In this document: piece by piece, positions 17,360 to 25,555 of the stretch
Layout of the letters: each line of letters opens with the position of its first letter
How positions within the stretch are numbered: position 1 is the stretch's first letter
NCBI RefSeq assembly: GCF_000018105.1
Contig: NC_009925.1
Location: forward strand, 2,520,001-2,552,000
Reading direction: 5' to 3'
Length of the DNA stretch: 32,000 nucleotides
Origin: Acaryochloris marina MBIC11017
Lineage (GTDB): Bacteria; Cyanobacteriota; Cyanobacteriia; Thermosynechococcales; Thermosynechococcaceae
The notes under the pieces: model-generated
Seen by the model: only the letters and a program-made list of their open reading frames with translations
Database searches by the model: none
What the model was told of the DNA's origin: nothing
Made by a program: the position numbers and the translations under genes

Positions 17360-18577
17360 TTGAGATCCATGCAACCTCGAACTGCACTGCTGGCAATCTT
17401 TTCCACTTTTCTGCAATTTGAGACGGATCATGTCCACACCTGGGCCAGTGATCCAAAGCTGCGGCGCAGTATGCAGATCCACCTTGAGCAATCCCAACAA
17501 ACGGATCTATCGGCGAAGTTTTGGTCCCTGTACTGGCATAAGCGATGGCGAGCAGACACTATGCAGAAGGTTGCGGCAGGACACTTAGCGGCCTATTTAC
17601 AGGAAGCTTGTTACTGGACGGCCCAGAAAACATCGACGCGATTTAGCAGTAGCCGCTATGGGGTAAGCGACTATTTTCAAATTGCGATGGCGCAGGTGGA
17701 CAAGATCCTCAAAGGATTTAACTCTGATCAGGGCTTTAATCTGCAAAATTATGCCAGCGCCACCTTTGCCAGCCTGATGCGGGAGACCCTTCGGCAACGC
17801 CGCGAAATTGATATTTGTAGTGATTGGGCATTGCTGCGGAAGCTGAGCCAAAAGCGGCTGGTCGAAGCGTTGAAAAATCATGGTATGCCCCAAGACACGA
17901 TTAATCGTTACGTTTTGGCTTGGACGAGCTTTAAGGCAATTTATGCCCCTCAACAGGCAACGGGGACGCAGAAGCTGGAGAAACCCGCGGCTGAGGTTTG
18001 GAGTGCGATCGCAACCCAATACAACCAGGAACGCACCACTCAACTGCTCCCCAACGCGGCTGCCATCACCGTTGAAGAACTCGAAACGATCCTGATGACC
18101 TGTGCCAAAGCCGCCAGAGCTTACCTGTATCCAGCGCAAATTTCCATCAATACGCCTAGGCCAGGACAAGATGCTGGGGAATTCCTCGATCAGTTACCCA
18201 ATACAGAGCAAGCGTCTTTACTGGAGGAGATGATCGCCACAGAAGACGTCAAAACCCGACAAACCCAGCATCAACAAATCGGTGAGGTGCTAGTCACCGC
18301 GATTCAGGCTCTGGATCCGCCTTCTCAATCCCTTTTGCAACTCTATTACTCCCAAGCCTATACCCAACAGCAAATTGCCGAGAAATTAGAGATGAAGCAG
18401 TACACCATCTCGCGACGATTAACCAAACTCCGCAAGACATTATTGACGGCCTTAGCGACCTGGAGCCAAGAAACCCTGCATATTTCACCCGACTCGGACG
18501 TACTCAAAGCCATGAGTTCTTCCCTAGAAGAATGGCTGACGGGACACTACGGCCCGCCCCCACTGCCCCTGCATTAG
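17360..18577 (+). CDS. Atypical sigma-70 family RNA polymerase sigma factor with a long N-terminal extension
   Basis: Divergent region-2-like segment DYFQIAMAQVDKILKGFNSDQGFNLQNYASATFASLMRETLRQ. Clear region-4 HTH LLQLYYSQAYTQQQIAEKLEMKQYTISRRLTKLRKTLL. The track start is TTG 17360; ATG at 17369 is the alternative. Confidence 0.7.
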   Translation: MRSMQPRTALLAIFSTFLQFETDHVHTWASDPKLRRSMQIHLEQSQQTDLSAKFWSLYWHKRWRADTMQKVAAGHLAAYLQEACYWTAQKTSTRFSSSRYGVSDYFQIAMAQVDKILKGFNSDQGFNLQNYASATFASLMRETLRQRREIDICSDWALLRKLSQKRLVEALKNHGMPQDTINRYVLAWTSFKAIYAPQQATGTQKLEKPAAEVWSAIATQYNQERTTQLLPNAAAITVEELETILMTCAKAARAYLYPAQISINTPRPGQDAGEFLDQLPNTEQASLLEEMIATEDVKTRQTQHQQIGEVLVTAIQALDPPSQSLLQLYYSQAYTQQQIAEKLEMKQYTISRRLTKLRKTLLTALATWSQETLHISPDSDVLKAMSSSLEEWLTGHYGPPPLPLH

Positions 18578-18578
18578 A

Positions 18579-19733
18579 GTGATGATCATGACGTCTGATT
18601 TAGCCTTATTTGATGCCACCTATTTAGAAATTGATGCGGATAGTCAAGCCCAAGCTTGGCAACAAAACGACGGCCCTAGCCGATGGCAAGCCTATTTAAA
18701 TCAGCTCTGCTTGGAAACGGTGATTCCCTGGTTACGGGAAGATCATGCTCTGCGAGCAATACCCGCGTTGAAAACTCCTTCGTTGCAAAGTATTTGGGCT
18801 GTGGTGACGGGGACACCGATTCAGGTAGGGGCACAAAAAATAGTCCTGATTCCCACGGAAACAATTGATTTAGATGAACTGCGGGTTCCCCAAGAATGGA
18901 TCGATATTCCCAACTGGATGGCGGATTATTATGTGGCGACCCAGGTGAATCCTGATGAAGGTTGGGTGAGGATCGGTGGGTTTACCAAACACTTACAGCT
19001 TAAGGAACAGGGGGCGTATGATTGGTGCGATCGCACCTACACTCTCAACGATATGGATCTGACGTCGGACCTGAATGTGCTCTGGCTCACCCAGCAATTC
19101 AATCCACAAGAGATCACCCAAGCAGCGGTCAATCCCTTACCGGCACTCTCCAAAACCCAAGCCGATCAACTCATTCAACGCCTCGGCAATTCAGACCTCG
19201 TGACTCCTCGCTTAGCCATTCCTTTTGAAGCATGGGGCAGCTTAATGGCCCACGGCGGTTGGCGACAGCGGTTGGCGGCACAACGACGTGGCATCACCGA
19301 ACAGCCCTCAGTAGGTCAATGGCTACAAACGGGAATGACAAATCTGGCTCAGCAGATAGGCTGGCAAGCAATTACATTACAACCTCAGCTCTCTGCTGCA
19401 CGAGGCGATCAACCCTCAACACCGACTGCAGCTATCTCACGACAGTTACAGATTGAGGGTCAGCCCTATGAGTTGAATATCTATGCAGTGGAAGCTGAGT
19501 CAGCGATATGGCGGTTTGAACTGCACCCTGTGACCCCTGGTGCCAGGATTCCAGCAGGTTTTGTGCTGAGATTACGAACGGAAGAACTAGAGGCTTTTGA
19601 GGGGAATGAGGATCAAGCGTCTGAACCTGTAGATCGGCTCTATATTGATGTCGCTTTGGCATCTGGGGAAGCTCTAGTCTGGGCGATTGAACCGCAGCCA
19701 GAACAATACGATCAAGAAATTTTGCGTTTTTAG
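18579..19733 (+). CDS. DUF1822-like cyanobacterial protein, tightly coupled to the sigma factor gene
   Basis: Candidate starts GTG 18579, ATG 18582 and ATG 18588 lie 1-10 nt after the sigma stop (TAG 18575-18577). N-terminal RWQAYLNQLCLETVIPWLRED resembles the DUF1822 N-terminal pattern as I recall it. The family call needs an HMM check. Confidence 0.5.
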   Translation: MMIMTSDLALFDATYLEIDADSQAQAWQQNDGPSRWQAYLNQLCLETVIPWLREDHALRAIPALKTPSLQSIWAVVTGTPIQVGAQKIVLIPTETIDLDELRVPQEWIDIPNWMADYYVATQVNPDEGWVRIGGFTKHLQLKEQGAYDWCDRTYTLNDMDLTSDLNVLWLTQQFNPQEITQAAVNPLPALSKTQADQLIQRLGNSDLVTPRLAIPFEAWGSLMAHGGWRQRLAAQRRGITEQPSVGQWLQTGMTNLAQQIGWQAITLQPQLSAARGDQPSTPTAAISRQLQIEGQPYELNIYAVEAESAIWRFELHPVTPGARIPAGFVLRLRTEELEAFEGNEDQASEPVDRLYIDVALASGEALVWAIEPQPEQYDQEILRF

Positions 19734-19791: not shown

Positions 19792-22497
19792 TCAACAAGT
19801 AACGCTGGGCTGACCAGAATTATGTGCCGTATGTTTAATATTGTTAGTCAGCACAATACGTCCTTGCTTATTCCGAGTCCATCCTTTGGCTTCCTCAATG
19901 TGAGAAATGGGAACTGATTGAGGAGGTTGATTAGGACTATCCATCTCAGGAGATGAGTCAGATTTTAGATGGTTCTGCTCAGAAAACGATTTTTCGTTCA
20001 GTATTGGAAAACCTCGCAAATCATGCCAAATTGATGGAGCAGTTTGTAGCTGTGTAGGAGCTAATGGAGTTCCGCCACGCCCAACATGTACAAAAGTACT
20101 GCCTCCTAGTGTTTGACCTGGACGGCACCCTTGTGTAATGGGTGGGTTCACTTCGATAGTCTCAGGAAGGTCAGCCAAGCCATCACTGGGATCAACTTCA
20201 GGATCTTGAATTTCAATGGTTCCACTAACCCCAAACTCAGAACTAGCAGTGATATCGCTAGTAGAGCTGAGTTGTTCACGAGGAACTAATCCAAAAATGC
20301 CTTGTGTTTGAATTTGAATCTTGCCACCCCGGCCTGTAACAGCATTTGCAACAATGTCACTATTCTCAATTGGAGGCGCAATGATGAATTTAGCTCCAAT
20401 GTTTATATTGCCACCCTCACCCGTACCATCTGCATTTGTGGAAATCAAACTCTTATTACGCAACAGTAAGTTCTCTTGAACTCTCAGGAGAATATTGCCT
20501 CCTTTACCAGAAGCAGTAGAAGCAATTATCTCTCCCATGCTATCCAGATAAATAGAATTAGCAATAACTTCAAGATTACCAGCATCACCTGCATTAATAC
20601 TGTTTACTGCAAGTTCTGCTCCATTACGAAGAATGAGCTGATCTGTGATTAAGCTTAAATCACCTGCATCGGATGATCCAAAGCTACTTGCACTGACAGC
20701 ACTTTGTAATAGCCCATCTCGTGGAGAAAAAGAAAACCCACTAATATCGATTACCTCAGACGCTTCAATAGATAAACTTCCAGAGGCTCCAGTTGCAAAA
20801 CTAGCTGCTTCAACGGCTCCCCCATCGCGGACTATTAATCTCTTGGTCTTGATAGCAAGAGATTGAGTGTCACCAGAGCCAAAAGATGCGACAGAAAGAC
20901 GGCTTCTAGAAATCGCTAGATTGGGTGGAAGGCTATATCTTGAAGTTCCAGAGACTTCCACTGAGTCCGATGCATTGACAACTATGCTGCCTCCATTTCC
21001 GCTAAATAATGGGCCTGCTGTCACGAGACCACCATCACCAATAATTAATTTTTTGGCATCAATTAGGATATTTCCCGCACGACCTGAACCTATACTGGCA
21101 GCTGATATATTACTGCTAAGCGTAATGGATCTAAAAGAAGCATCGCTAAATCCAGGGACATCAAACCCAAACGGGAAAAATCTTTCTGGGACAAAACCTA
21201 GAGGAATAGATTGGCCTGAAATATCTACAAACCCAGCAACACGAATAGACACATCTCCTCCTCGCCCTAAACCGAAGCTAAAAGCAGCAATCTCGGCACC
21301 TTGCTCGACTATCACTTTGCCTGCTTCTATTTCTATATTTCCTGCTTGGCCCTCACTAAATGAACTTGAAGTAATATTTGTTAGGCGGGGAGTAAGGATT
21401 CCTGCTGCAGCTAAGCGAGTATCCAGCGGACCGTTTGTTAACGTATTTCCCAAAACTTGCAAAGAATCAGTTGCAGAAATAGTTATTGTTCCACCAGGTT
21501 TATTTCCTAAAGTATTCGACTGGATAAGAGAGCCTTCATTCAGTTTTACTTGTTGGCCTCTAATCTGAATTTCTCCTCCACCATCACCGCTAGCATCAAG
21601 AACAGCCAGATTGGAAAACAGAATATTCTGGAACTTTTCTACACCGTCGTAATTTAATGAGAAAGTATTCACATTTTCAGAAGATTGAGAAATTTGAACA
21701 TAACTGTTCGCTCCAACTGCCCCAACCTCTATTCGGCCTCCAGAAGTTTGAGCATTTGAGCCCAACTGACGGCCTTCTAATGTAGCCCCAACTCCTGACA
21801 AATCAATAGTTCCTCCAGCCGATGTAAGATAACCGCCCTCCACGTTGACGTCTCCGCCCACCAAGGCTAAGGTCTTACCAGGTTTTACCTGGAGACCGAC
21901 TAAAGATTCCATCCCGTTTTGCCCAATTTGGGTTGCCTGAGAACGATTGATCACTGTTCTGGGAGATTCACCAAACTGAAGCCCTACAGGAGTACTAATT
22001 GTCAGGAGAGTAGGTGTTTGATGGTCGACAGCACTAAAAATACTGCCATCTCCAAAGTGTAGGCTATCTGCAGTAGAAGCTATAAAAGAACCACCAATAT
22101 CAATTTGTCCATTAGCTCCAAAGATTAAACCGTTAGGATTAATTAGAAAAAGGTTGGCGGTACCGTTACCTGTAATAAGCCCATCTATTGTGGAAACGTT
22201 CCTTCCAGTAATGCGGGTAATGACATTACCTATAGAAAGGTCATGATCGAAAATTGCTACGCTATCTGTTGAGACAGAGAATTCCTTGAAGCTATGAAAT
22301 AGATTGTTGCCTACAGTTGTACCACCAGTAATACGCTGAAGATTACCTTGGATATCTACTACAGAATCACTAGGAAGTGTAGCATCAGGGACTATTTGAG
22401 CGACAGCTTCCATACATGCCAAAAGCTCAAGCAATATCAAAGCAAGGCATTGCCATAATAACAAATGTCTACTTTTTAGGAAACTATTTAGCTGCAT
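19792..22497 (-). CDS. Two-partner-secretion exoprotein (filamentous-haemagglutinin N-terminal TPS domain + beta-helix repeats)
   Basis: Signal peptide followed by AQIVPDATLP. TPS-domain motifs NLFHSF (22288-22305) and LINPNGLIFG (NPNG at 22129-22140). The long Gly/Ser/Asn/Ile-rich repeat body is typical of a right-handed beta-helix. The C-terminal motifs HVGRGGTPLAP and AKGWTRNKQGRIVLT are seen in cyanobacterial members. Confidence 0.85.
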   Translation of the reverse strand: MQLNSFLKSRHLLLWQCLALILLELLACMEAVAQIVPDATLPSDSVVDIQGNLQRITGGTTVGNNLFHSFKEFSVSTDSVAIFDHDLSIGNVITRITGRNVSTIDGLITGNGTANLFLINPNGLIFGANGQIDIGGSFIASTADSLHFGDGSIFSAVDHQTPTLLTISTPVGLQFGESPRTVINRSQATQIGQNGMESLVGLQVKPGKTLALVGGDVNVEGGYLTSAGGTIDLSGVGATLEGRQLGSNAQTSGGRIEVGAVGANSYVQISQSSENVNTFSLNYDGVEKFQNILFSNLAVLDASGDGGGEIQIRGQQVKLNEGSLIQSNTLGNKPGGTITISATDSLQVLGNTLTNGPLDTRLAAAGILTPRLTNITSSSFSEGQAGNIEIEAGKVIVEQGAEIAAFSFGLGRGGDVSIRVAGFVDISGQSIPLGFVPERFFPFGFDVPGFSDASFRSITLSSNISAASIGSGRAGNILIDAKKLIIGDGGLVTAGPLFSGNGGSIVVNASDSVEVSGTSRYSLPPNLAISRSRLSVASFGSGDTQSLAIKTKRLIVRDGGAVEAASFATGASGSLSIEASEVIDISGFSFSPRDGLLQSAVSASSFGSSDAGDLSLITDQLILRNGAELAVNSINAGDAGNLEVIANSIYLDSMGEIIASTASGKGGNILLRVQENLLLRNKSLISTNADGTGEGGNINIGAKFIIAPPIENSDIVANAVTGRGGKIQIQTQGIFGLVPREQLSSTSDITASSEFGVSGTIEIQDPEVDPSDGLADLPETIEVNPPITQGCRPGQTLGGSTFVHVGRGGTPLAPTQLQTAPSIWHDLRGFPILNEKSFSEQNHLKSDSSPEMDSPNQPPQSVPISHIEEAKGWTRNKQGRIVLTNNIKHTAHNSGQPSVTC

Positions 22498-22816
22498 ATT
22501 GGATATGGATCAAATATTTGGCCTAGTCTAGGAATCTTCCAAAATATATTGAGATATGAGATGACGTACTCCTAGAATTCTTAAAATGAGGCCACCAAGA
22601 AAACCTAGATCACTAAAACTTTCTATCTACATTGACATCAGATATTAAGTATAAGAAGCACTAAATTCTCCTTTGCAAAAATCTAAAAGAGGATTAGCCC
22701 TGATAAGGCCTCAGCATGTATTTGACGTTGCAGGTGTTTAATAACAACTAATGTAAAGCCCTTTATAAGGCATGGTAATTCATTGTTGTTTGCCGACTCT
22801 TTCTCAATTACTTCTA

Positions 22817-25555
22817 TCATTTAAAGTGAGGATATACATCGCGTTCAAATAAATCTTTAACTTTCTCTTTGTAGGATGACGGTTCTATCTTTTTAAGCTT
22901 ATCTGTATAGTCTTTCTCTACACTGTAATCATCTTCACGTTCAGGCGGAGAATGAAGTTCACTTAACCAAGTTGCATGAATGGTTACACCTATATTCATT
23001 TGAGGATGGCTAAGTCTATAAAGAGGACCTTGATGCAAATCTTGAGCATCAAATATCCAAAATTCACAAAACTTTTTGTCTTCTCTATTCTCTGGCTCAG
23101 TATAGGAATGGTTTGTTGCAATCACTAGGCAAACAATATAGCCATTCGTTGGGCTAGGATCTGAAGAATGAAAATCACGAGGGACAAATTGCGGTGAATT
23201 AGCAAAAAAACCTCGTGGAAAAATGTATGAGTCTACAAGATCTAATTTAGGTTTTTTACATTGTATAGATTGTTTAATATGAAGTAAATTGGGCTGTTTT
23301 CCCTCATTGACAATATTTTTAAATAGATCTTGTATATTATCTGGTCGATCTTTATATAGTTCGAAATAGTATTCAGTCAAGGTATTAGGCCATGCACCCC
23401 AACAATTCCAGTAAATGTCAGTGATATTATCTGAACATTTTTCATGCCAAGTATATAGTGCTGTTGCCCATAACTTATCGTTATATTTATCATCTAAAAA
23501 ATCTTTTTCAATCAGACGCTCTTTTATTCTAGTGGTATAGTTTTCAATATCAAGGATCCAAGTACCTATGCGACAGTTATCCATACCGCTTGGTCCAATT
23601 CCCGCGCGTTCTTGAAGTTTTTTACTTACGTCTTCATTACAGGTCTGGATAACAGTAGGGTCTTGAGGTCTATAACCGCAAAGAGCCTCATCAATTTTAT
23701 GAATAAATTCAGCCGGATCATGAGCAGCTGTATGTGCTATATGCAGTATTATCTTGCCTTCGGGATTCTCATAATTAGTCACAAAATGCGCTGTTTCAGG
23801 TTCAATCCGAAAATGACGTGCATGAATTATCTGTCTAGCCTCAGAGGTTTTACCAAGTTTTTTATATATATTAGAAGGGGCTAAACTTTTCTCTTCTAAG
23901 CGATCAGGCCTATCAATGACGTAAATATCAGTGTATGACCTTTGCGGGTAATTTACGTACCTTAGTAAAAATCTAGTGAGACTTATTCCTGGGTTTCTAA
24001 AAAATTTTTCTCGAATGCTGGAGTCTAGCAAAGATCGCATCCAAAGAGTTCTGTAAGAAGGGTTGGGAAACTCTTGAATTTGTTTTGGAAACTCTTGAAT
24101 TTGTTTTGGAAACTCTTGAACTTGCTTAAAAACCTCTTGAATTTTTTTTAATGGTACAAGGAAGTATGGTGGATTAAAAATACTAGGGATTACATCTGCA
24201 AGAACTAGCTTGAAGCTGGAATCTGACAAGATAATATAGTCTTTAGTAATACCCATTTGATGCAACGAATGAGGAATTTTTATAGAGCAACCATTGCTGT
24301 CCACTACCTCCCATTTATCTATATCTTGAATTTCTGCTCTTTTTCCATCCCAACGATAAAGATAAAGATGATTTTCGCCACCTATTCTAATAAAACTCAA
24401 GAAATTTATTGCATAGTGAATAATACAAGCAATAAATCTAGTAAGCGACCAGAAAATATACTGACTTGACTTAGAAAAAGATTTTTTTTCGAAATACTCA
24501 AAAACACCACGTTTAAAGTTAGGTAAAGTTCGCGGAATAGAAAGCATCGTTGGTAGTGATTTAGTGGCATTCACTACATAAACTATATCCTTATCAGGAG
24601 CATATACAGGATGGGCTACTGCTAGAGTAATAGGAAAGACTTGGGTCAGTAATGGAATCTCACGATTTGGTAAAATTTGTTGGACAACAGGCAAATTTTT
24701 AAGTATTTTATGTAAATTTTGAAAAACCCTGGATAATCGATTTATTTCAATTAGCGGTAACCAATCTTTGTTCAATCCAACTGGTCCTACTAGATCTAAT
24801 GTGTAAGGGTTCACTTCATAAGGGCGGCCGGCATCCCACACCAATAAAAGTCTCTCTTTACCTGATTTGTCGTTAGGTTTCATGGGTAGTAAAGCTGTAT
24901 TGAGGAGATTGCGACCCCCAAGTCTAAAAGATAGCCGCGTGATAACAGAGTCATAAAACTTAGATTCACGATATTCGACCCTAGACCATGGCAAAGTCCC
25001 TGAAGGATGCGTTTTTTTGCTATTTATATACCTAGGATCATAATTACCACCAGGCAAAAGAGCTTTATCAACATAATAATCAGGTGTTTTAATTAGTTTC
25101 GTTGATAGAAAAGCACCGCCTTTAGCTAGTTTTGTATCTTGTATATAATTATCAGAATTTTCATCAGAGCTATCATCTATTTGACCGGAATGATGGAAGT
25201 CTAATCTATAAATCATCCCATCTCCAAAAAACAGGTGTGTCCAACCATCAAAGGTTGGAACAACAATATTTTCTTGGCCCTTCGATTCTAGTGAACCTGC
25301 GGGACCAACTATAAATACATGCCCTTCTAAATCCTCTGGAAGTGAATCAGCTACCCAATTATTAGCATTTAGAAAATCTGATTGAGAGGCGTCTATCTCA
25401 GTCTTATCTTTGCGTTTCAGAATCTTGAGCCTAAGAGGCTCTTTATCAGAGCCTTGTCCATATTCTTCTCTATTAACCGAGAGCACCGCTTTGGGAAACA
25501 ATCCCTCTTCTCTATCGGTAAATGAGTGATTGGAAGACGAAGCTGAGTTTTCCAT
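22817..25555 (-). CDS. Oversized carotenoid-oxygenase (CCD/RPE65) family protein, 912 aa
   Basis: Family motifs occur in order: HLFFGDGMIYRLDF; NTALLPM...LLLVWDAGRPYEVNPYTLDLVGPVG; AVAHPVYAPDKDIVYVVN; LHQMGITKDYIILSD; AHFVTNYENPEGKIILHI; SPQFVPRD...NGYIVCLV...EFWIFDAQDL..GPLYRLSHPQMNIGVTIHATW. The four candidate Fe-ligand His codons are at 24611-24613, 24260-24262, 23786-23788 and 22976-22978. Confidence 0.7.
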   Translation of the reverse strand: MENSASSSNHSFTDREEGLFPKAVLSVNREEYGQGSDKEPLRLKILKRKDKTEIDASQSDFLNANNWVADSLPEDLEGHVFIVGPAGSLESKGQENIVVPTFDGWTHLFFGDGMIYRLDFHHSGQIDDSSDENSDNYIQDTKLAKGGAFLSTKLIKTPDYYVDKALLPGGNYDPRYINSKKTHPSGTLPWSRVEYRESKFYDSVITRLSFRLGGRNLLNTALLPMKPNDKSGKERLLLVWDAGRPYEVNPYTLDLVGPVGLNKDWLPLIEINRLSRVFQNLHKILKNLPVVQQILPNREIPLLTQVFPITLAVAHPVYAPDKDIVYVVNATKSLPTMLSIPRTLPNFKRGVFEYFEKKSFSKSSQYIFWSLTRFIACIIHYAINFLSFIRIGGENHLYLYRWDGKRAEIQDIDKWEVVDSNGCSIKIPHSLHQMGITKDYIILSDSSFKLVLADVIPSIFNPPYFLVPLKKIQEVFKQVQEFPKQIQEFPKQIQEFPNPSYRTLWMRSLLDSSIREKFFRNPGISLTRFLLRYVNYPQRSYTDIYVIDRPDRLEEKSLAPSNIYKKLGKTSEARQIIHARHFRIEPETAHFVTNYENPEGKIILHIAHTAAHDPAEFIHKIDEALCGYRPQDPTVIQTCNEDVSKKLQERAGIGPSGMDNCRIGTWILDIENYTTRIKERLIEKDFLDDKYNDKLWATALYTWHEKCSDNITDIYWNCWGAWPNTLTEYYFELYKDRPDNIQDLFKNIVNEGKQPNLLHIKQSIQCKKPKLDLVDSYIFPRGFFANSPQFVPRDFHSSDPSPTNGYIVCLVIATNHSYTEPENREDKKFCEFWIFDAQDLHQGPLYRLSHPQMNIGVTIHATWLSELHSPPEREDDYSVEKDYTDKLKKIEPSSYKEKVKDLFERDVYPHFK
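24065..24148. repeat. Four tandem copies of a 21-bp unit, in frame within the CCD-like gene
   Basis: Units are 24065-24085, 24086-24106 and 24107-24127 ((G/T)GGAAACTCTTGAA(T/C)TTG(T/C)TT), plus a degenerate fourth at 24128-24148. They encode QEVFKQV-QEFPKQI-QEFPKQI-QEFPNPS on the minus strand. Confidence 0.9.

What the first reader, a model, noticed from the sequence alone, without database searches (positions are those of the whole stretch)
22817..25555. 912-aa carotenoid-oxygenase homologue, about double the usual size, retaining all four putative Fe-ligand histidines
Seen in sequence:
- Ordered CCD/RPE65 family motifs are present.
- His residues sit at the four expected motif positions: AHP (H315), LHQMGIT (H432), AHFVTNYE (H590), IHATW (H860).
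- The protein has large insertions. One is a hydrophobic segment YIFWSLTRFIACIIHYAINFLSFI between H1 and H2.
- An insertion of about 150 aa between H2 and H3 includes the heptad tandem repeat.
- There is also an insertion of about 200 aa before the last blade.
- It has acidic N- and C-terminal extensions.

Established knowledge: characterised family members (Synechocystis ACO, lignostilbene dioxygenases, plant CCD/NCED, RPE65) are roughly 480-650 aa seven-bladed propellers with a 4-His Fe(II) site.

Inference: this is probably an active dioxygenase with novel accessory domains and an unknown substrate. Its position upstream of a secreted TPS protein on a foreign island is unexplained.
Basis: partly seen in the sequence, partly recalled or inferred. 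Interest (0 to 1): 0.65.

Follow-up and report, generated by a model that had tools for sequence, protein, structure and literature searches.

The report
Enlarged cyanobacterial carotenoid-oxygenase homologue, TPS-linked
The 912-residue Acaryochloris marina protein AM1_2511 is a real but very divergent member of the iron-dependent carotenoid-cleavage-oxygenase family; it belongs to an uncharacterised 'long-form' cyanobacterial subfamily whose genes nearly always lie next to either a secreted TPS-domain protein or a giant sensor kinase, which points to an undescribed functional coupling.

Summary
The ORF is real: 22817-25555, minus strand, 912 aa. It is AM1_2511 of Acaryochloris marina MBIC11017, annotated 'carotenoid oxygenase family protein'.

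- **Family:** it passes PF03055 at 76.8 bits. A confident AlphaFold model has only carotenoid cleavage oxygenases as best PDB matches.
- **Iron site:** H315, H432, H590 and H860 are invariant in 80 homologues and align with the canonical iron ligands. The second-sphere Glu triad is not kept: Asp241 is invariant, Ser787 is near-invariant, and the third position is unclear.
- **Extra length:** the additional 447 aa are not added domains. They are loop and helix expansions spread along the propeller, and most are shared by a distinct cyanobacterial subfamily with a median length of about 750 aa.
- **Subfamily size:** only 405 representative clusters among 1.84 billion proteins reach E<=1e-30.
- **Gene neighbours:** of 87 loci, 29 have a TPS-domain gene beside the oxygenase and 41 have a Pkinase-AAA_16-GAF-histidine-kinase gene. 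None has both.
- **Substrate hint:** some TPS-linked loci add an ABA4-like membrane protein (fused to the oxygenase in one protein) and a carotene-desaturase-like flavoprotein. This hints at a carotenoid substrate.
- **Origin:** the window's gene pair is a low-GC insertion.

Verdict: a new variant of a known enzyme kind. Its biochemistry is untested.

The parts
22817..25555 (-). Long-form carotenoid cleavage oxygenase (CCO) family gene, 912 aa (AM1_2511, ABW27519.1, WP_012162979.1)
   Evidence: ORF. PF03055 76.8 bits. 100% match to the A. marina record. AF2 model pLDDT 85.4, pTM 0.89. Foldseek top hits are all CCOs.
24611..24613 (-). Codon of His315 (Fe ligand 1, motif AHP)
   Evidence: Invariant in 80 sequences. 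Aligns with NOV1 H167 and with canonical TAHP.
24260..24262 (-). Codon of His432 (Fe ligand 2, motif LHQMGIT)
   Evidence: Invariant. Aligns with NOV1 H218 and with canonical MMHDF.
23786..23788 (-). Codon of His590 (Fe ligand 3, motif AHFVTNYE)
   Evidence: Invariant. Aligns with the canonical VFHTLNAYE by hhalign.
22976..22978 (-). Codon of His860 (Fe ligand 4, motif IHATW)
   Evidence: Invariant. Aligns with NOV1 H476.
24392..24472 (-). Hydrophobic helix, residues 362-388, inside the family-wide H1-H2 helical hairpin insertion (residues ~333-395)
   Evidence: AF2 helices 340-357 and 362-388. The best 19-residue Kyte-Doolittle window is 1.66 here and 1.9-2.8 in the other Acaryochloris-type proteins, against a family median of 1.3. 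Indels between orthologues flank it.
23936..24202 (-). H2-H3 helical insertion, residues ~452-540. It is about 70 aa longer than in the rest of the subfamily, and its centre has low model confidence.
   Evidence: H2-H3 spacing is 158 in the query, 89 as the family median and 64 in the canonical CCO. pLDDT is below 50 for residues 485-512. There is a 21-aa indel against the orthologue.
24066..24149 (-). 21-nt tandem repeat, 4.0 copies, encoding the heptads QEFPKQI
   Evidence: TRF score 119, 84% matches. Peptide positions 480-493.
22498..22816 (-). 319-nt spacer between the oxygenase gene and the TPS gene
   Evidence: Coordinates. It is partly conserved with the orthologous spacer in L093, best in the ~50 nt before the TPS ATG. 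Promoter-like and terminator-like matches are not above the shuffled expectation.
19792..22497 (-). Partner gene: TPS-domain (filamentous-haemagglutinin N-terminal domain) exoprotein, 901 aa. It has an N-terminal signal-peptide-like segment, beta-helix repeats and a conserved Cys-containing C-terminal region.
   Evidence: PF05860 189.8 bits. TIGR01901 72.5 bits. Orthologues beside long CCOs are 42-55% identical with the same architecture. Adjacency is conserved in 29 loci.

Best explanation
AM1_2511 is a long-form member of the carotenoid cleavage oxygenase superfamily.

- **Fold and metal site.** It is a seven-bladed propeller that most likely binds Fe(II) through four histidines. It probably cleaves, or otherwise oxygenates, a conjugated C=C bond of a lipophilic polyene, most plausibly a carotenoid or apocarotenoid.
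- **Extra length.** Its ~450 extra residues are expansions of propeller loops. By their position relative to the His ligands, these correspond to the loops that form the cap and membrane-binding face around the substrate tunnel in ACO and RPE65. Here they include a hydrophobic helix that may hold the enzyme on a membrane.
- **Location.** The protein has no signal peptide, so it should act on the cytoplasmic side.
- **Gene module.** It is encoded as a two-gene module with a secreted TPS-domain protein. Relatives in the sister lineage are instead paired with a cytoplasmic Ser/Thr-kinase/AAA/GAF/His-kinase. The oxygenase therefore looks like an accessory 'plug-in' whose product or state serves its partner.
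- **Origin.** In this genome the module is a low-GC insertion next to dnaE-N.

Shown: family membership, fold (predicted), conservation of the four His, purifying selection, and conserved, mutually exclusive gene linkage. Inferred: iron binding, catalysis, carotenoid substrate, membrane association, and the nature of the coupling to the TPS protein.
For: **Family and fold**
- PF03055 is above its threshold.
- hhalign to a canonical CCO gives probability 97.8% over its whole length.
- The AF2 model has pLDDT 85.4 and pTM 0.89.
- The top 50 Foldseek PDB hits are all CCOs (LSD, ACO, RPE65, NinaB, CAO1, NOV1, CCD1), with TM-scores of 0.57-0.69 normalised to the target.

**Active site**
- The four His are invariant in 80 homologues and aligned with the known ligands.
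- The NT(A) and GDGM motifs are kept.
- Asp241 is invariant at the first second-sphere position, and Glu or Asp is accepted there (PMC12051055).

**Selection**
- dN/dS is 0.25 against the syntenic orthologue, and indels are confined to the insertions.

**Subfamily**
- The genome scan found 351 relatives, and the 80 best loci are almost all from cyanobacteria.
- Only 405 representative clusters reach E<=1e-30 in 1.84 billion proteins.
- Median length is 751 aa.

**Linkage**
- Of 87 loci, 29 are TPS-linked, 41 are kinase-linked, none is both, and only 7 assessable loci have neither.
- The window groups with other TPS-linked Acaryochloris proteins in 98 of 100 bootstraps.
- CCO and TPS distance matrices correlate at r=0.78, with 0 of 2000 Mantel permutations as high.
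- The orthologous locus L093 has the same gene order.

**Carotenoid hint**
- An ABA4-like (PF14108) gene lies between TPS and CCO in 6 loci and is fused to the CCO in P0049.
- A flavoprotein whose best NCBIfam matches are HpnE, zeta-carotene desaturase and CrtD/CrtI occurs in 5 loci.
Against: - No biochemical data exist. Literature searches for the gene or for this linkage found nothing.
- Two of the three canonical second-sphere Glu are not kept. Ser787 replaces one (78 of 80 sequences). The third position is acidic in only 43 of 80 sequences. Fe affinity or reactivity may therefore differ from characterised enzymes.
- The window has no ABA4-like or desaturase-like gene, so the carotenoid hint comes only from relatives.
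- The oxygenase (no signal peptide) and the TPS protein (exported) should be in different compartments, which makes a direct enzyme-substrate relation unlikely.
- No TpsB transporter gene is in the window.
- The linkage is one-sided. Only 3 of 45 assessable close TPS relatives have a long CCO next door.
Confidence: 0.6

Rival explanations
1. It keeps the metal site but is not a cleavage dioxygenase. It would act as an RPE65/NinaB-like isomerase, or as a sensor of iron, oxygen or oxidised carotenoid that signals to its partner: the TPS protein here, a GAF kinase in the sister lineage.
For: - The second sphere is remodelled, with Ser787 in place of a canonical Glu.
- Strict pairing with large non-enzymatic or signalling partners, a TPS protein or a Pkinase-AAA_16-GAF-HisKA-HATPase, suggests a regulatory role.
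- RPE65 and NinaB are among the equally good structural matches.
Against: - All four His and the surrounding CCO motifs are invariant, as in catalytic members.
- Co-location and fusion with ABA4-like and desaturase-like genes suggests metabolism rather than sensing.
- No known CCO is purely a sensor (own knowledge).
Confidence: 0.15
2. It is an active alkene-cleaving dioxygenase whose substrate is not a carotenoid. The substrate would be a stilbene-like, isoeugenol-like or other aromatic/conjugated metabolite, as with lignostilbene dioxygenases.
For: - The best PDB fold match is Pseudomonas lignostilbene dioxygenase 5v2d, E 3e-17.
- The best PDB profile hits are LSD and NOV1.
- The only NCBIfam hits are LSD models.
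- An ABM-type monooxygenase gene lies between the CCO and TPS genes in 4 loci.
Against: - The NCBIfam LSD scores are 19-21 bits against cut-offs of 650-800.
- Foldseek scores for ACO, RPE65, NinaB and CCD1 are practically the same.
- The neighbours and the fusion partner point to isoprenoid chemistry.
- Stilbenoids are not typical cyanobacterial metabolites (own knowledge).
Confidence: 0.15
3. The adjacency to the TPS gene has no functional meaning. The two genes merely travel together on a mobile low-GC island.
For: - The pair is low-GC (36% and 43% against ~50%).
- Its dS is lower than that of the flanks.
- Most close TPS relatives have no CCO neighbour.
Against: - Adjacency recurs in 29 loci from many cyanobacterial genera with different flanks.
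- It holds at 30-45% protein identity and in two orientations: tandem, and divergent with ABA4-like between.
- In most of these loci the CCO GC equals that of the flanks, with a median difference of -0.009.
Confidence: 0.05
4. It is a decaying xenologue, a non-functional remnant inflated by repeats.
For: - Low GC.
- A tandem repeat and length-variable insertions.
- dN/dS of 0.25 is higher than for the housekeeping neighbours at 0.03.
Against: - The 912-codon frame is intact, and so is the 954-codon orthologue.
- dN/dS is well below 1.
- All family-invariant residues are kept.
Confidence: 0.03

Closest known systems
Synechocystis apocarotenoid-15,15'-oxygenase ACO (PDB 2BIW) and other canonical cyanobacterial CCOs (~465-500 aa)
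   Same: - Same superfamily (PF03055) and the same predicted seven-bladed propeller.
- The four His are at homologous positions, and the GDGM, LLxxW[ED]xGxP, HxxxxYE and FVPR motifs are recognisable.
- Foldseek E is 1e-15, with TM 0.66 on the target.
   Different: - Only about 11-13% structural-alignment identity. Single-sequence phmmer against the PDB is not significant, E 1.7.
- 447 extra residues lie in at least 8 insertions plus a conserved two-helix C-terminal extension.
- ACO Glu150 corresponds to Asp241 and ACO Glu426 to Ser787.
- It is encoded with a TPS gene.
- A. marina has four canonical CCDs of 479-488 aa in addition. The 2012 survey listed those and missed this gene (PMC3299332).
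Lignostilbene/stilbene dioxygenases (LsdA, NOV1, P. brassicacearum LSD 5V2D)
   Same: - Best fold match (5v2d, E 3.3e-17) and best profile-to-PDB sequence matches.
- NOV1 H167, H218 and H476 align with H315, H432 and H860.
   Different: - NCBIfam LSD equivalog models score 19-21 bits against cut-offs of 650-800.
- NOV1 Glu418 corresponds to Ser.
- Size, insertions and gene context differ.
RPE65 / NinaB (animal retinoid isomerase and isomerooxygenase)
   Same: - Comparable Foldseek scores, TM 0.62-0.66 on the target.
- These are monotopic membrane proteins whose membrane-binding loops lie roughly 15-25 residues after His1 and His2 and in the N-terminal blades (own knowledge of RPE65 segments 109-126, 196-202 and 261-271). 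These are the same loop positions where AM1_2511 has its largest insertions.
   Different: - RPE65 keeps all three second-sphere Glu (own knowledge).
- No evidence here for ester or isomerase chemistry.
- The insertions here are far larger and helical.
Kinase-linked long-form CCOs of other cyanobacteria (e.g. Microcystis, Nostocales, Microcoleus; 650-770 aa, or ~1400-aa tandem doubles)
   Same: - Same long-form subfamily.
- Same insertions, the same invariant residues including Asp241 and Ser787, and the same C-terminal helices.
   Different: - 27-33% identity.
- The partner gene is a Pkinase-AAA_16-GAF-HisKA-HATPase protein of 1800-2350 aa instead of a TPS protein.
- The strongly hydrophobic helix is less pronounced.

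Membership tests
Carotenoid cleavage oxygenase superfamily (Pfam PF03055, RPE65) | Significant match to the family profile above the curated threshold | tested here: met
   76.8 bits, E 2.4e-21, against a cut-off of 27. There are two local stretches, the best being residues 71-454 to profile positions 20-226. hhalign to a canonical CCO covers its residues 16-458 at probability 97.8%.
Carotenoid cleavage oxygenase superfamily (Pfam PF03055, RPE65) | Seven-bladed beta-propeller fold with a cap | tested here: met
   Prediction only. The AF2 model has pLDDT 85.4 and pTM 0.89. The best 50 PDB matches are all CCOs, E down to 3e-17 and TM 0.57-0.69 on the target.
Carotenoid cleavage oxygenase superfamily (Pfam PF03055, RPE65) | Four conserved His that ligate Fe(II) | tested here: met
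   H315, H432, H590 and H860 are invariant in 80 sequences and aligned with the known ligand positions. Their 3D geometry and metal binding are not testable here.
Carotenoid cleavage oxygenase superfamily (Pfam PF03055, RPE65) | Three second-sphere carboxylates (Glu/Asp) hydrogen-bonded to three of the His (PMC12051055) | tested here: not met
   Position 1 is Asp241 in 80 of 80 sequences, which is acceptable. Position 3 is Ser787 in 78 of 80 and Thr in 2. Position 2 is uncertain: Asp693 in the query, and acidic in only 43 of 80. This makes it a variant of the site and does not exclude it from the superfamily.
Carotenoid cleavage oxygenase superfamily (Pfam PF03055, RPE65) | O2-dependent cleavage of a conjugated C=C bond | not testable with these tools
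   No assay is possible, and no literature on AM1_2511 or on long-form members was found.
Lignostilbene-alpha,beta-dioxygenase (NCBIfam NF053778 / NF053780 equivalogs) | Score above the equivalog cut-off | tested here: not met
   19.2 and 21.1 bits against cut-offs of 800 and 650. Only the C-terminal ~60 residues match.
Two-partner secretion system (for the neighbouring gene 19792-22497) | TpsA with an N-terminal TPS domain | tested here: met
   PF05860 189.8 bits over the full profile 1-252. TIGR01901 72.5 bits. The NPNG motif and a signal-peptide-like N-terminus are seen in the sequence.
Two-partner secretion system (for the neighbouring gene 19792-22497) | Cognate TpsB (ShlB/FhaC, POTRA + Omp85 barrel) encoded nearby | tested here: not met
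   No ShlB or POTRA gene was found among the window ORFs scanned. A TpsB gene is present near the CCO-TPS pair in 4 other loci.
Known anti-phage defence systems (PADLOC) | Match of the oxygenase or the TPS protein to any defence-system model | tested here: not met
   No hits for either protein.

The most novel reading that the evidence does not exclude
Long-form oxygenases would be the signal-generating half of undescribed two-gene apocarotenoid modules in cyanobacteria.

- The enzyme would cut a membrane carotenoid, and its product would be used by the co-encoded partner.
- In one lineage the partner is a secreted TPS-domain surface protein, as in this window. This would imply a carotenoid-derived modification of, cofactor for, or cue for a cell-surface or secretion system.
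- In the other lineage the partner is a GAF-containing Ser/Thr-His kinase, which would imply an intracellular apocarotenoid receptor.
- A corollary: the kinase-linked members in Microcystis (L058, L063) are candidates for the beta-carotene 7,8(7',8')-oxygenase that makes beta-cyclocitral. A 2016 review still described that enzyme as not identified (PMC5133782).
Probability: 0.12. Interest if true: 0.8.

Novelty: new variant of a known kind. Interest (0 to 1): 0.55.

Why it matters
Carotenoid cleavage oxygenases make retinal, abscisic-acid and strigolactone precursors, and volatile signals. All characterised members are about 460-650 aa and share a 4-His/3-carboxylate iron site.

This gene stands for a sharply separated cyanobacterial subfamily with three unusual traits:
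- It is 1.5 to 2 times the usual size.
- Its second coordination sphere is remodelled.
- Its genes show a strong, mutually exclusive linkage to either a secreted TPS protein or a giant GAF sensor kinase.

I found no paper describing any of this.

If the linkage reflects function, it gives a direct experimental handle on what apocarotenoids do in cyanobacteria, whether signalling, surface biology or both. It also points to a possible source of so far unassigned carotenoid-cleaving activities.

If instead the protein turns out to be an ordinary apocarotenoid oxygenase with decorative loops, the finding is a modest family extension.

Tried and rejected
- **Single-sequence PDB search:** not significant, E 1.7. 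A profile and a fold search were needed.
- **Extra domains:** Pfam and NCBIfam found nothing in the insertions.
- **Spacer and gene region:** promoter-like and terminator-like matches are at the shuffled expectation (16 against 17.3, and 4 against 4.7), so nothing can be said about co-transcription.
- **RNA genes:** Rfam and tRNA scans of the window found nothing.
- **Defence systems:** PADLOC has no model matching the oxygenase or the TPS protein.
- **Literature:** searches for the gene (AM1_2511), for a long-form relative (Ava_2047), for CCO with filamentous haemagglutinin, and for the cyanobacterial TPS/CHAT/DUF928 cluster found nothing. One search failed on syntax.
- **Obligate-pair idea:** rejected. 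Only 3 of 45 assessable close TPS relatives have a long CCO neighbour; most sit with CHAT, ShlB or DUF928 genes.
- **Low GC as a family property:** rejected. The median CCO-minus-flank GC difference in 29 TPS-linked loci is -0.009, against -0.134 here.
- **Fusion artefact:** rejected, given colinear homologues and a syntenic orthologue.
- **His-His distances:** could not be measured, and the insertions could not be mapped in 3D, because model coordinates are not returned.


Full report
**1. The observation**

The window comes from Acaryochloris marina MBIC11017. The ORF product is 100% identical to ABW27519.1 / WP_012162979.1 / AM1_2511, annotated 'carotenoid oxygenase family protein'.

The ORF at 22817-25555 on the minus strand is intact and encodes 912 aa. 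So are the hydrophobic stretch at 366-389 and the heptad repeat. At DNA level the repeat is a 21-nt unit in 4.0 copies at 24066-24149.

**2. Family membership and fold**

- PF03055 is matched at 76.8 bits, E 2.4e-21, against a threshold of 27, in two local stretches.
- A single-sequence search of the PDB is not significant, E 1.7.
- A profile of 80 homologues (A1) finds LSD, NOV1, ACO and CCD1 structures. It aligns H315, H432 and H860 with NOV1 H167, H218 and H476.
- hhalign of A1 against a canonical 465-aa cyanobacterial CCO (L007:16536-17933) gives 97.8% probability over canonical residues 16-458. It aligns all four His, including H590 with the canonical FHTLNAYE.
- The AlphaFold model built on A1 is confident, with mean pLDDT 85.4 and pTM 0.89.
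- Its 50 best PDB matches are all carotenoid/stilbene oxygenases or RPE65/NinaB. E goes down to 3e-17, and TM is 0.57-0.69 normalised to the target.
- The four His are invariant across the 80 sequences.

I could not measure His geometry because coordinates are not returned.

**3. What is different about the iron site**

CCOs have three second-sphere carboxylates hydrogen-bonded to three of the His (PMC12051055). In this subfamily:
- The first position is an invariant Asp (D241, 80 of 80).
- The position of ACO Glu426 / NOV1 Glu418 is Ser (S787; 78 Ser and 2 Thr).
- The third position is poorly aligned and acidic in only 43 of 80 sequences; it is D693 in the query.

So '4-His' holds, but '3-Glu' does not.

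**4. Where the extra length is**

| Segment | Canonical 465-aa CCO | AM1_2511 | Excess |
|---|---|---|---|
| N-terminus to His1 | 164 | 315 | +151 |
| His1 to His2 | 48 | 117 | +69 |
| His2 to His3 | 64 | 158 | +94 |
| His3 to His4 | 176 | 270 | +94 |
| C-tail after His4 | 13 | 52 | +39 |

- No additional Pfam domain is present.
- The model shows helical insertions at 271-292, 334-388, 452-534 (centre at pLDDT below 50), 641-648 and 728-749, plus two C-terminal helices at 879-911.
- Most of this is a family trait. Median spacings in A1 are 121 (H1-H2), 89 (H2-H3), 249.5 (H3-H4) and 48 (tail). The median length of 87 relatives is 751 aa.
- What is specific to this protein is about 70 extra residues between H2 and H3, including the repeat. 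It also shares, with the other Acaryochloris-type proteins, a strongly hydrophobic helix in the H1-H2 hairpin.
- The 42 residues of indels between AM1_2511 and its 79%-identical orthologue fall exactly in these two insertions, while the propeller core is highly conserved.
- By position relative to the His ligands, the large insertions coincide with the loops that form the membrane-binding, tunnel-mouth face of RPE65. That comparison rests on my own knowledge and is an inference.
- The terminal extensions are mixed-charge rather than acidic.

**5. The subfamily**

- Word-indexed search found 226 relatives. Nearly all those with a source name come from cyanobacteria, and all carry PF03055. Lengths are about 660-1090 aa, plus forms of about 1400 aa.
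- A scan of 185,579 species genomes found 351 relatives.
- A few of the 80 best loci are labelled Rhizobium or Actinomycetota. They have cyanobacterial neighbours and GC (the Rhizobium-labelled L021 is 0.43-0.46), so they look like mis-binned contigs.
- An exhaustive HMM search of 1.84 billion representatives with the A1 profile found only 806 proteins at E<=1e-3 and 405 at E<=1e-30. The profile hardly reaches canonical CCOs, so the subfamily is sharply separated. The tree shows this as a very long stem.
- The ~1400-aa proteins match the profile twice and are tandem doubles.
- The 2012 genome-wide survey of cyanobacterial CCDs lists four A. marina genes of 479-488 aa. It does not list AM1_2511 (PMC3299332).

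**6. Gene neighbourhood (the main new result)**

Downstream of AM1_2511, after 319 nt, lies a 901-aa protein with a full TPS domain: PF05860 189.8 bits and TIGR01901.

The same arrangement appears around relatives of 30-45% identity in unrelated flanks:
- Acaryochloris CCMEE 5410.
- An uncultured cyanobacterium with TPS - CCO - ABM - TPS.
- A JGI metagenome.

More distant relatives are instead followed by a 1800-2350-aa Pkinase-AAA_16-GAF-HisKA-HATPase protein.

A census of 87 loci by tblastn gave the following:

| Neighbour within 4 kb | Loci |
|---|---|
| TPS gene (tandem downstream, or divergent upstream) | 29 |
| Giant kinase, adjacent | 41 |
| Both | 0 |
| Contig too short to tell | 10 |
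| Neither | 7 |

- In a neighbour-joining tree, 37 of the 41 kinase-linked proteins fall in one clade that contains no TPS-linked member. The exact membership of that clade has weak bootstrap support, 11 of 100.
- The window protein groups with the other Acaryochloris TPS-linked proteins in 98 of 100 bootstraps.
- CCO and TPS pairwise distances are correlated: r = 0.78, with 0 of 2000 permutations as high.
- The TPS partners are orthologous: 42-55% identity, about 830-900 aa, with a conserved Cys-containing C-terminal region.

The linkage is one-sided. Among the 80 closest TPS relatives in metagenomes, only 3 of 45 assessable loci have a long CCO next door. Most lie with CHAT, ShlB/POTRA and DUF928 genes. 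The oxygenase therefore looks like an accessory attached to a subset of a larger cyanobacterial TPS system.

**7. Hints to chemistry**

- In six TPS-linked loci an ABA4-like membrane protein (PF14108, E 2.6e-44) lies between the TPS and CCO genes.
- In P0049 that domain is fused to the N-terminus of a long CCO that is 35% identical to AM1_2511.
- Five loci carry a ~600-aa flavoprotein whose best NCBIfam matches are HpnE, zeta-carotene desaturase and CrtD/CrtI. All are below their cut-offs.
- Four loci have a small ABM-type protein between the CCO and TPS genes.
- ABA4 is needed for neoxanthin formation in plants (own knowledge).

Together these favour an isoprenoid or carotenoid substrate. None of these genes is in the present window.

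**8. History of the locus**

- The oxygenase gene has 36% GC and the TPS gene 43%, against about 50% in the flanks.
- In 29 TPS-linked loci the median CCO-minus-flank GC difference is -0.009, and the window at -0.134 is the extreme.
- A related strain (L093) has the same order: dnaE-N, CCO, TPS, DUF1822, sigma factor, ORF, Pkinase-TIR-AAA_35.
- Against it, dN/dS is 0.25 for the CCO and 0.18 for the TPS gene, which indicates purifying selection.
- dS of the pair (0.37 and 0.27) is well below that of the flanking genes (0.6-1.1). This is consistent with a separate, more recent history of the pair or with composition-constrained codons.

**9. Interpretation**

The best reading (confidence about 0.6) is a catalytically competent, membrane-associated Fe(II) oxygenase acting on a carotenoid-like polyene. 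It would be encoded as an accessory to a secreted TPS protein.

The rivals are:
- An isomerase-like or sensor role.
- A non-carotenoid alkene substrate.
- Meaningless hitch-hiking with the TPS gene.
- Gene decay.

How the product or state of a cytoplasmic enzyme serves an exported protein is unknown. No TpsB gene is in the window.

**10. Novelty and score**

- Family membership is already in the public annotation.
- The long-form subfamily as such, its altered second sphere and its two alternative conserved partners were not found in the searchable literature.
- I rate it a new variant of a known kind, with interest 0.55.
- A speculative corollary concerns the kinase-linked members in Microcystis (L058, L063). 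They are candidates for the still unidentified beta-cyclocitral-forming oxygenase (PMC5133782).

Noticed in passing
L005, L007, L011 and 38 further loci of L013-L092 (e.g. L058 12049-17844, L063 2896-7470): The sister lineage of long-form oxygenases is almost always followed on the same strand, with a gap of 3-370 nt, by an 1800-2350-aa Pkinase-AAA_16-GAF-HisKA-HATPase protein. It includes Microcystis, whose beta-carotene 7,8(7',8')-oxygenase a 2016 review described as not yet identified.
   Followed up: partly
P0030, P0043, P0121, P0122; L005 8001-12389, L074, L082, L088, L091: The ~1400-1540-aa 'carotenoid oxygenase' proteins of Nostocales match the long-form profile twice, so they are tandem double oxygenases. 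Some loci (L047, L051, L054, L077) have two separate long-form genes in tandem.
   Followed up: partly
P0049; L022 9214-9693, and L025, L027, L036, L050, L072: An ABA4-like (PF14108) membrane protein is fused to a long-form oxygenase in P0049. In six loci it is encoded between the divergent TPS and oxygenase genes.
   Followed up: partly
window 25686-28289 (-): DnaE N-terminal half (PHP, DNA_pol3_alpha and finger domains) ending in an intein N-fragment (CLSYDT...). This is the split dnaE gene typical of cyanobacteria, and the low-GC pair is inserted directly downstream of it.
   Followed up: no
window 19792-25555 versus L093 2831-8707: Synonymous divergence of the oxygenase-TPS pair (dS 0.37 and 0.27) is two to four times lower than that of the flanking genes (0.6-1.1) between the two Acaryochloris strains. 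This suggests later exchange of the pair or strong compositional constraint.
   Followed up: partly
window 13547-16141 (-) and 9942-13493 (-): These are Pkinase-TIR-AAA_35 (864 aa) and AAA_35-WD40 (1183 aa) genes. The kinase domain matches PADLOC PD-T4-6 models (E 3e-94), so this may be a defence-type or STAND-type pair. It is conserved in L093.
   Followed up: no
window 17360-18577 (+) and 18579-19733 (+): An unusually long (405 aa) sigma-70/ECF-type sigma factor is followed immediately by a DUF1822 protein, convergent with the TPS gene. The pair is also present in L093 but is not recurrent in other oxygenase loci.
   Followed up: partly
window 8589-9761 (-): A KaiB-domain + HisKA + HATPase_c protein of 390 aa, the SasA-type circadian output kinase architecture.
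   Followed up: no
window 16363-17268 (-): A 301-aa ORF with no Pfam, NCBIfam or PADLOC match. It is conserved in position in L093 but is only 68% identical there, the fastest-evolving gene of the block (dN 0.21).
   Followed up: no
L094-L173: Close relatives of the TPS protein mostly lie in clusters with CHAT-TPR, ShlB/POTRA and DUF928 genes. This is a recurrent cyanobacterial TPS gene set, and a literature search for it (cyanobacteria, two-partner secretion, CHAT domain, DUF928) found no paper.
   Followed up: partly
L021 (labelled Rhizobium sp. MAG), L037 (labelled Actinomycetota MAG): These contigs carry long-form oxygenases with cyanobacterial-type neighbours. L021 also has a GC of 0.43-0.46, which is cyanobacterial-like. 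They are probably mis-binned cyanobacterial contigs.
   Followed up: no
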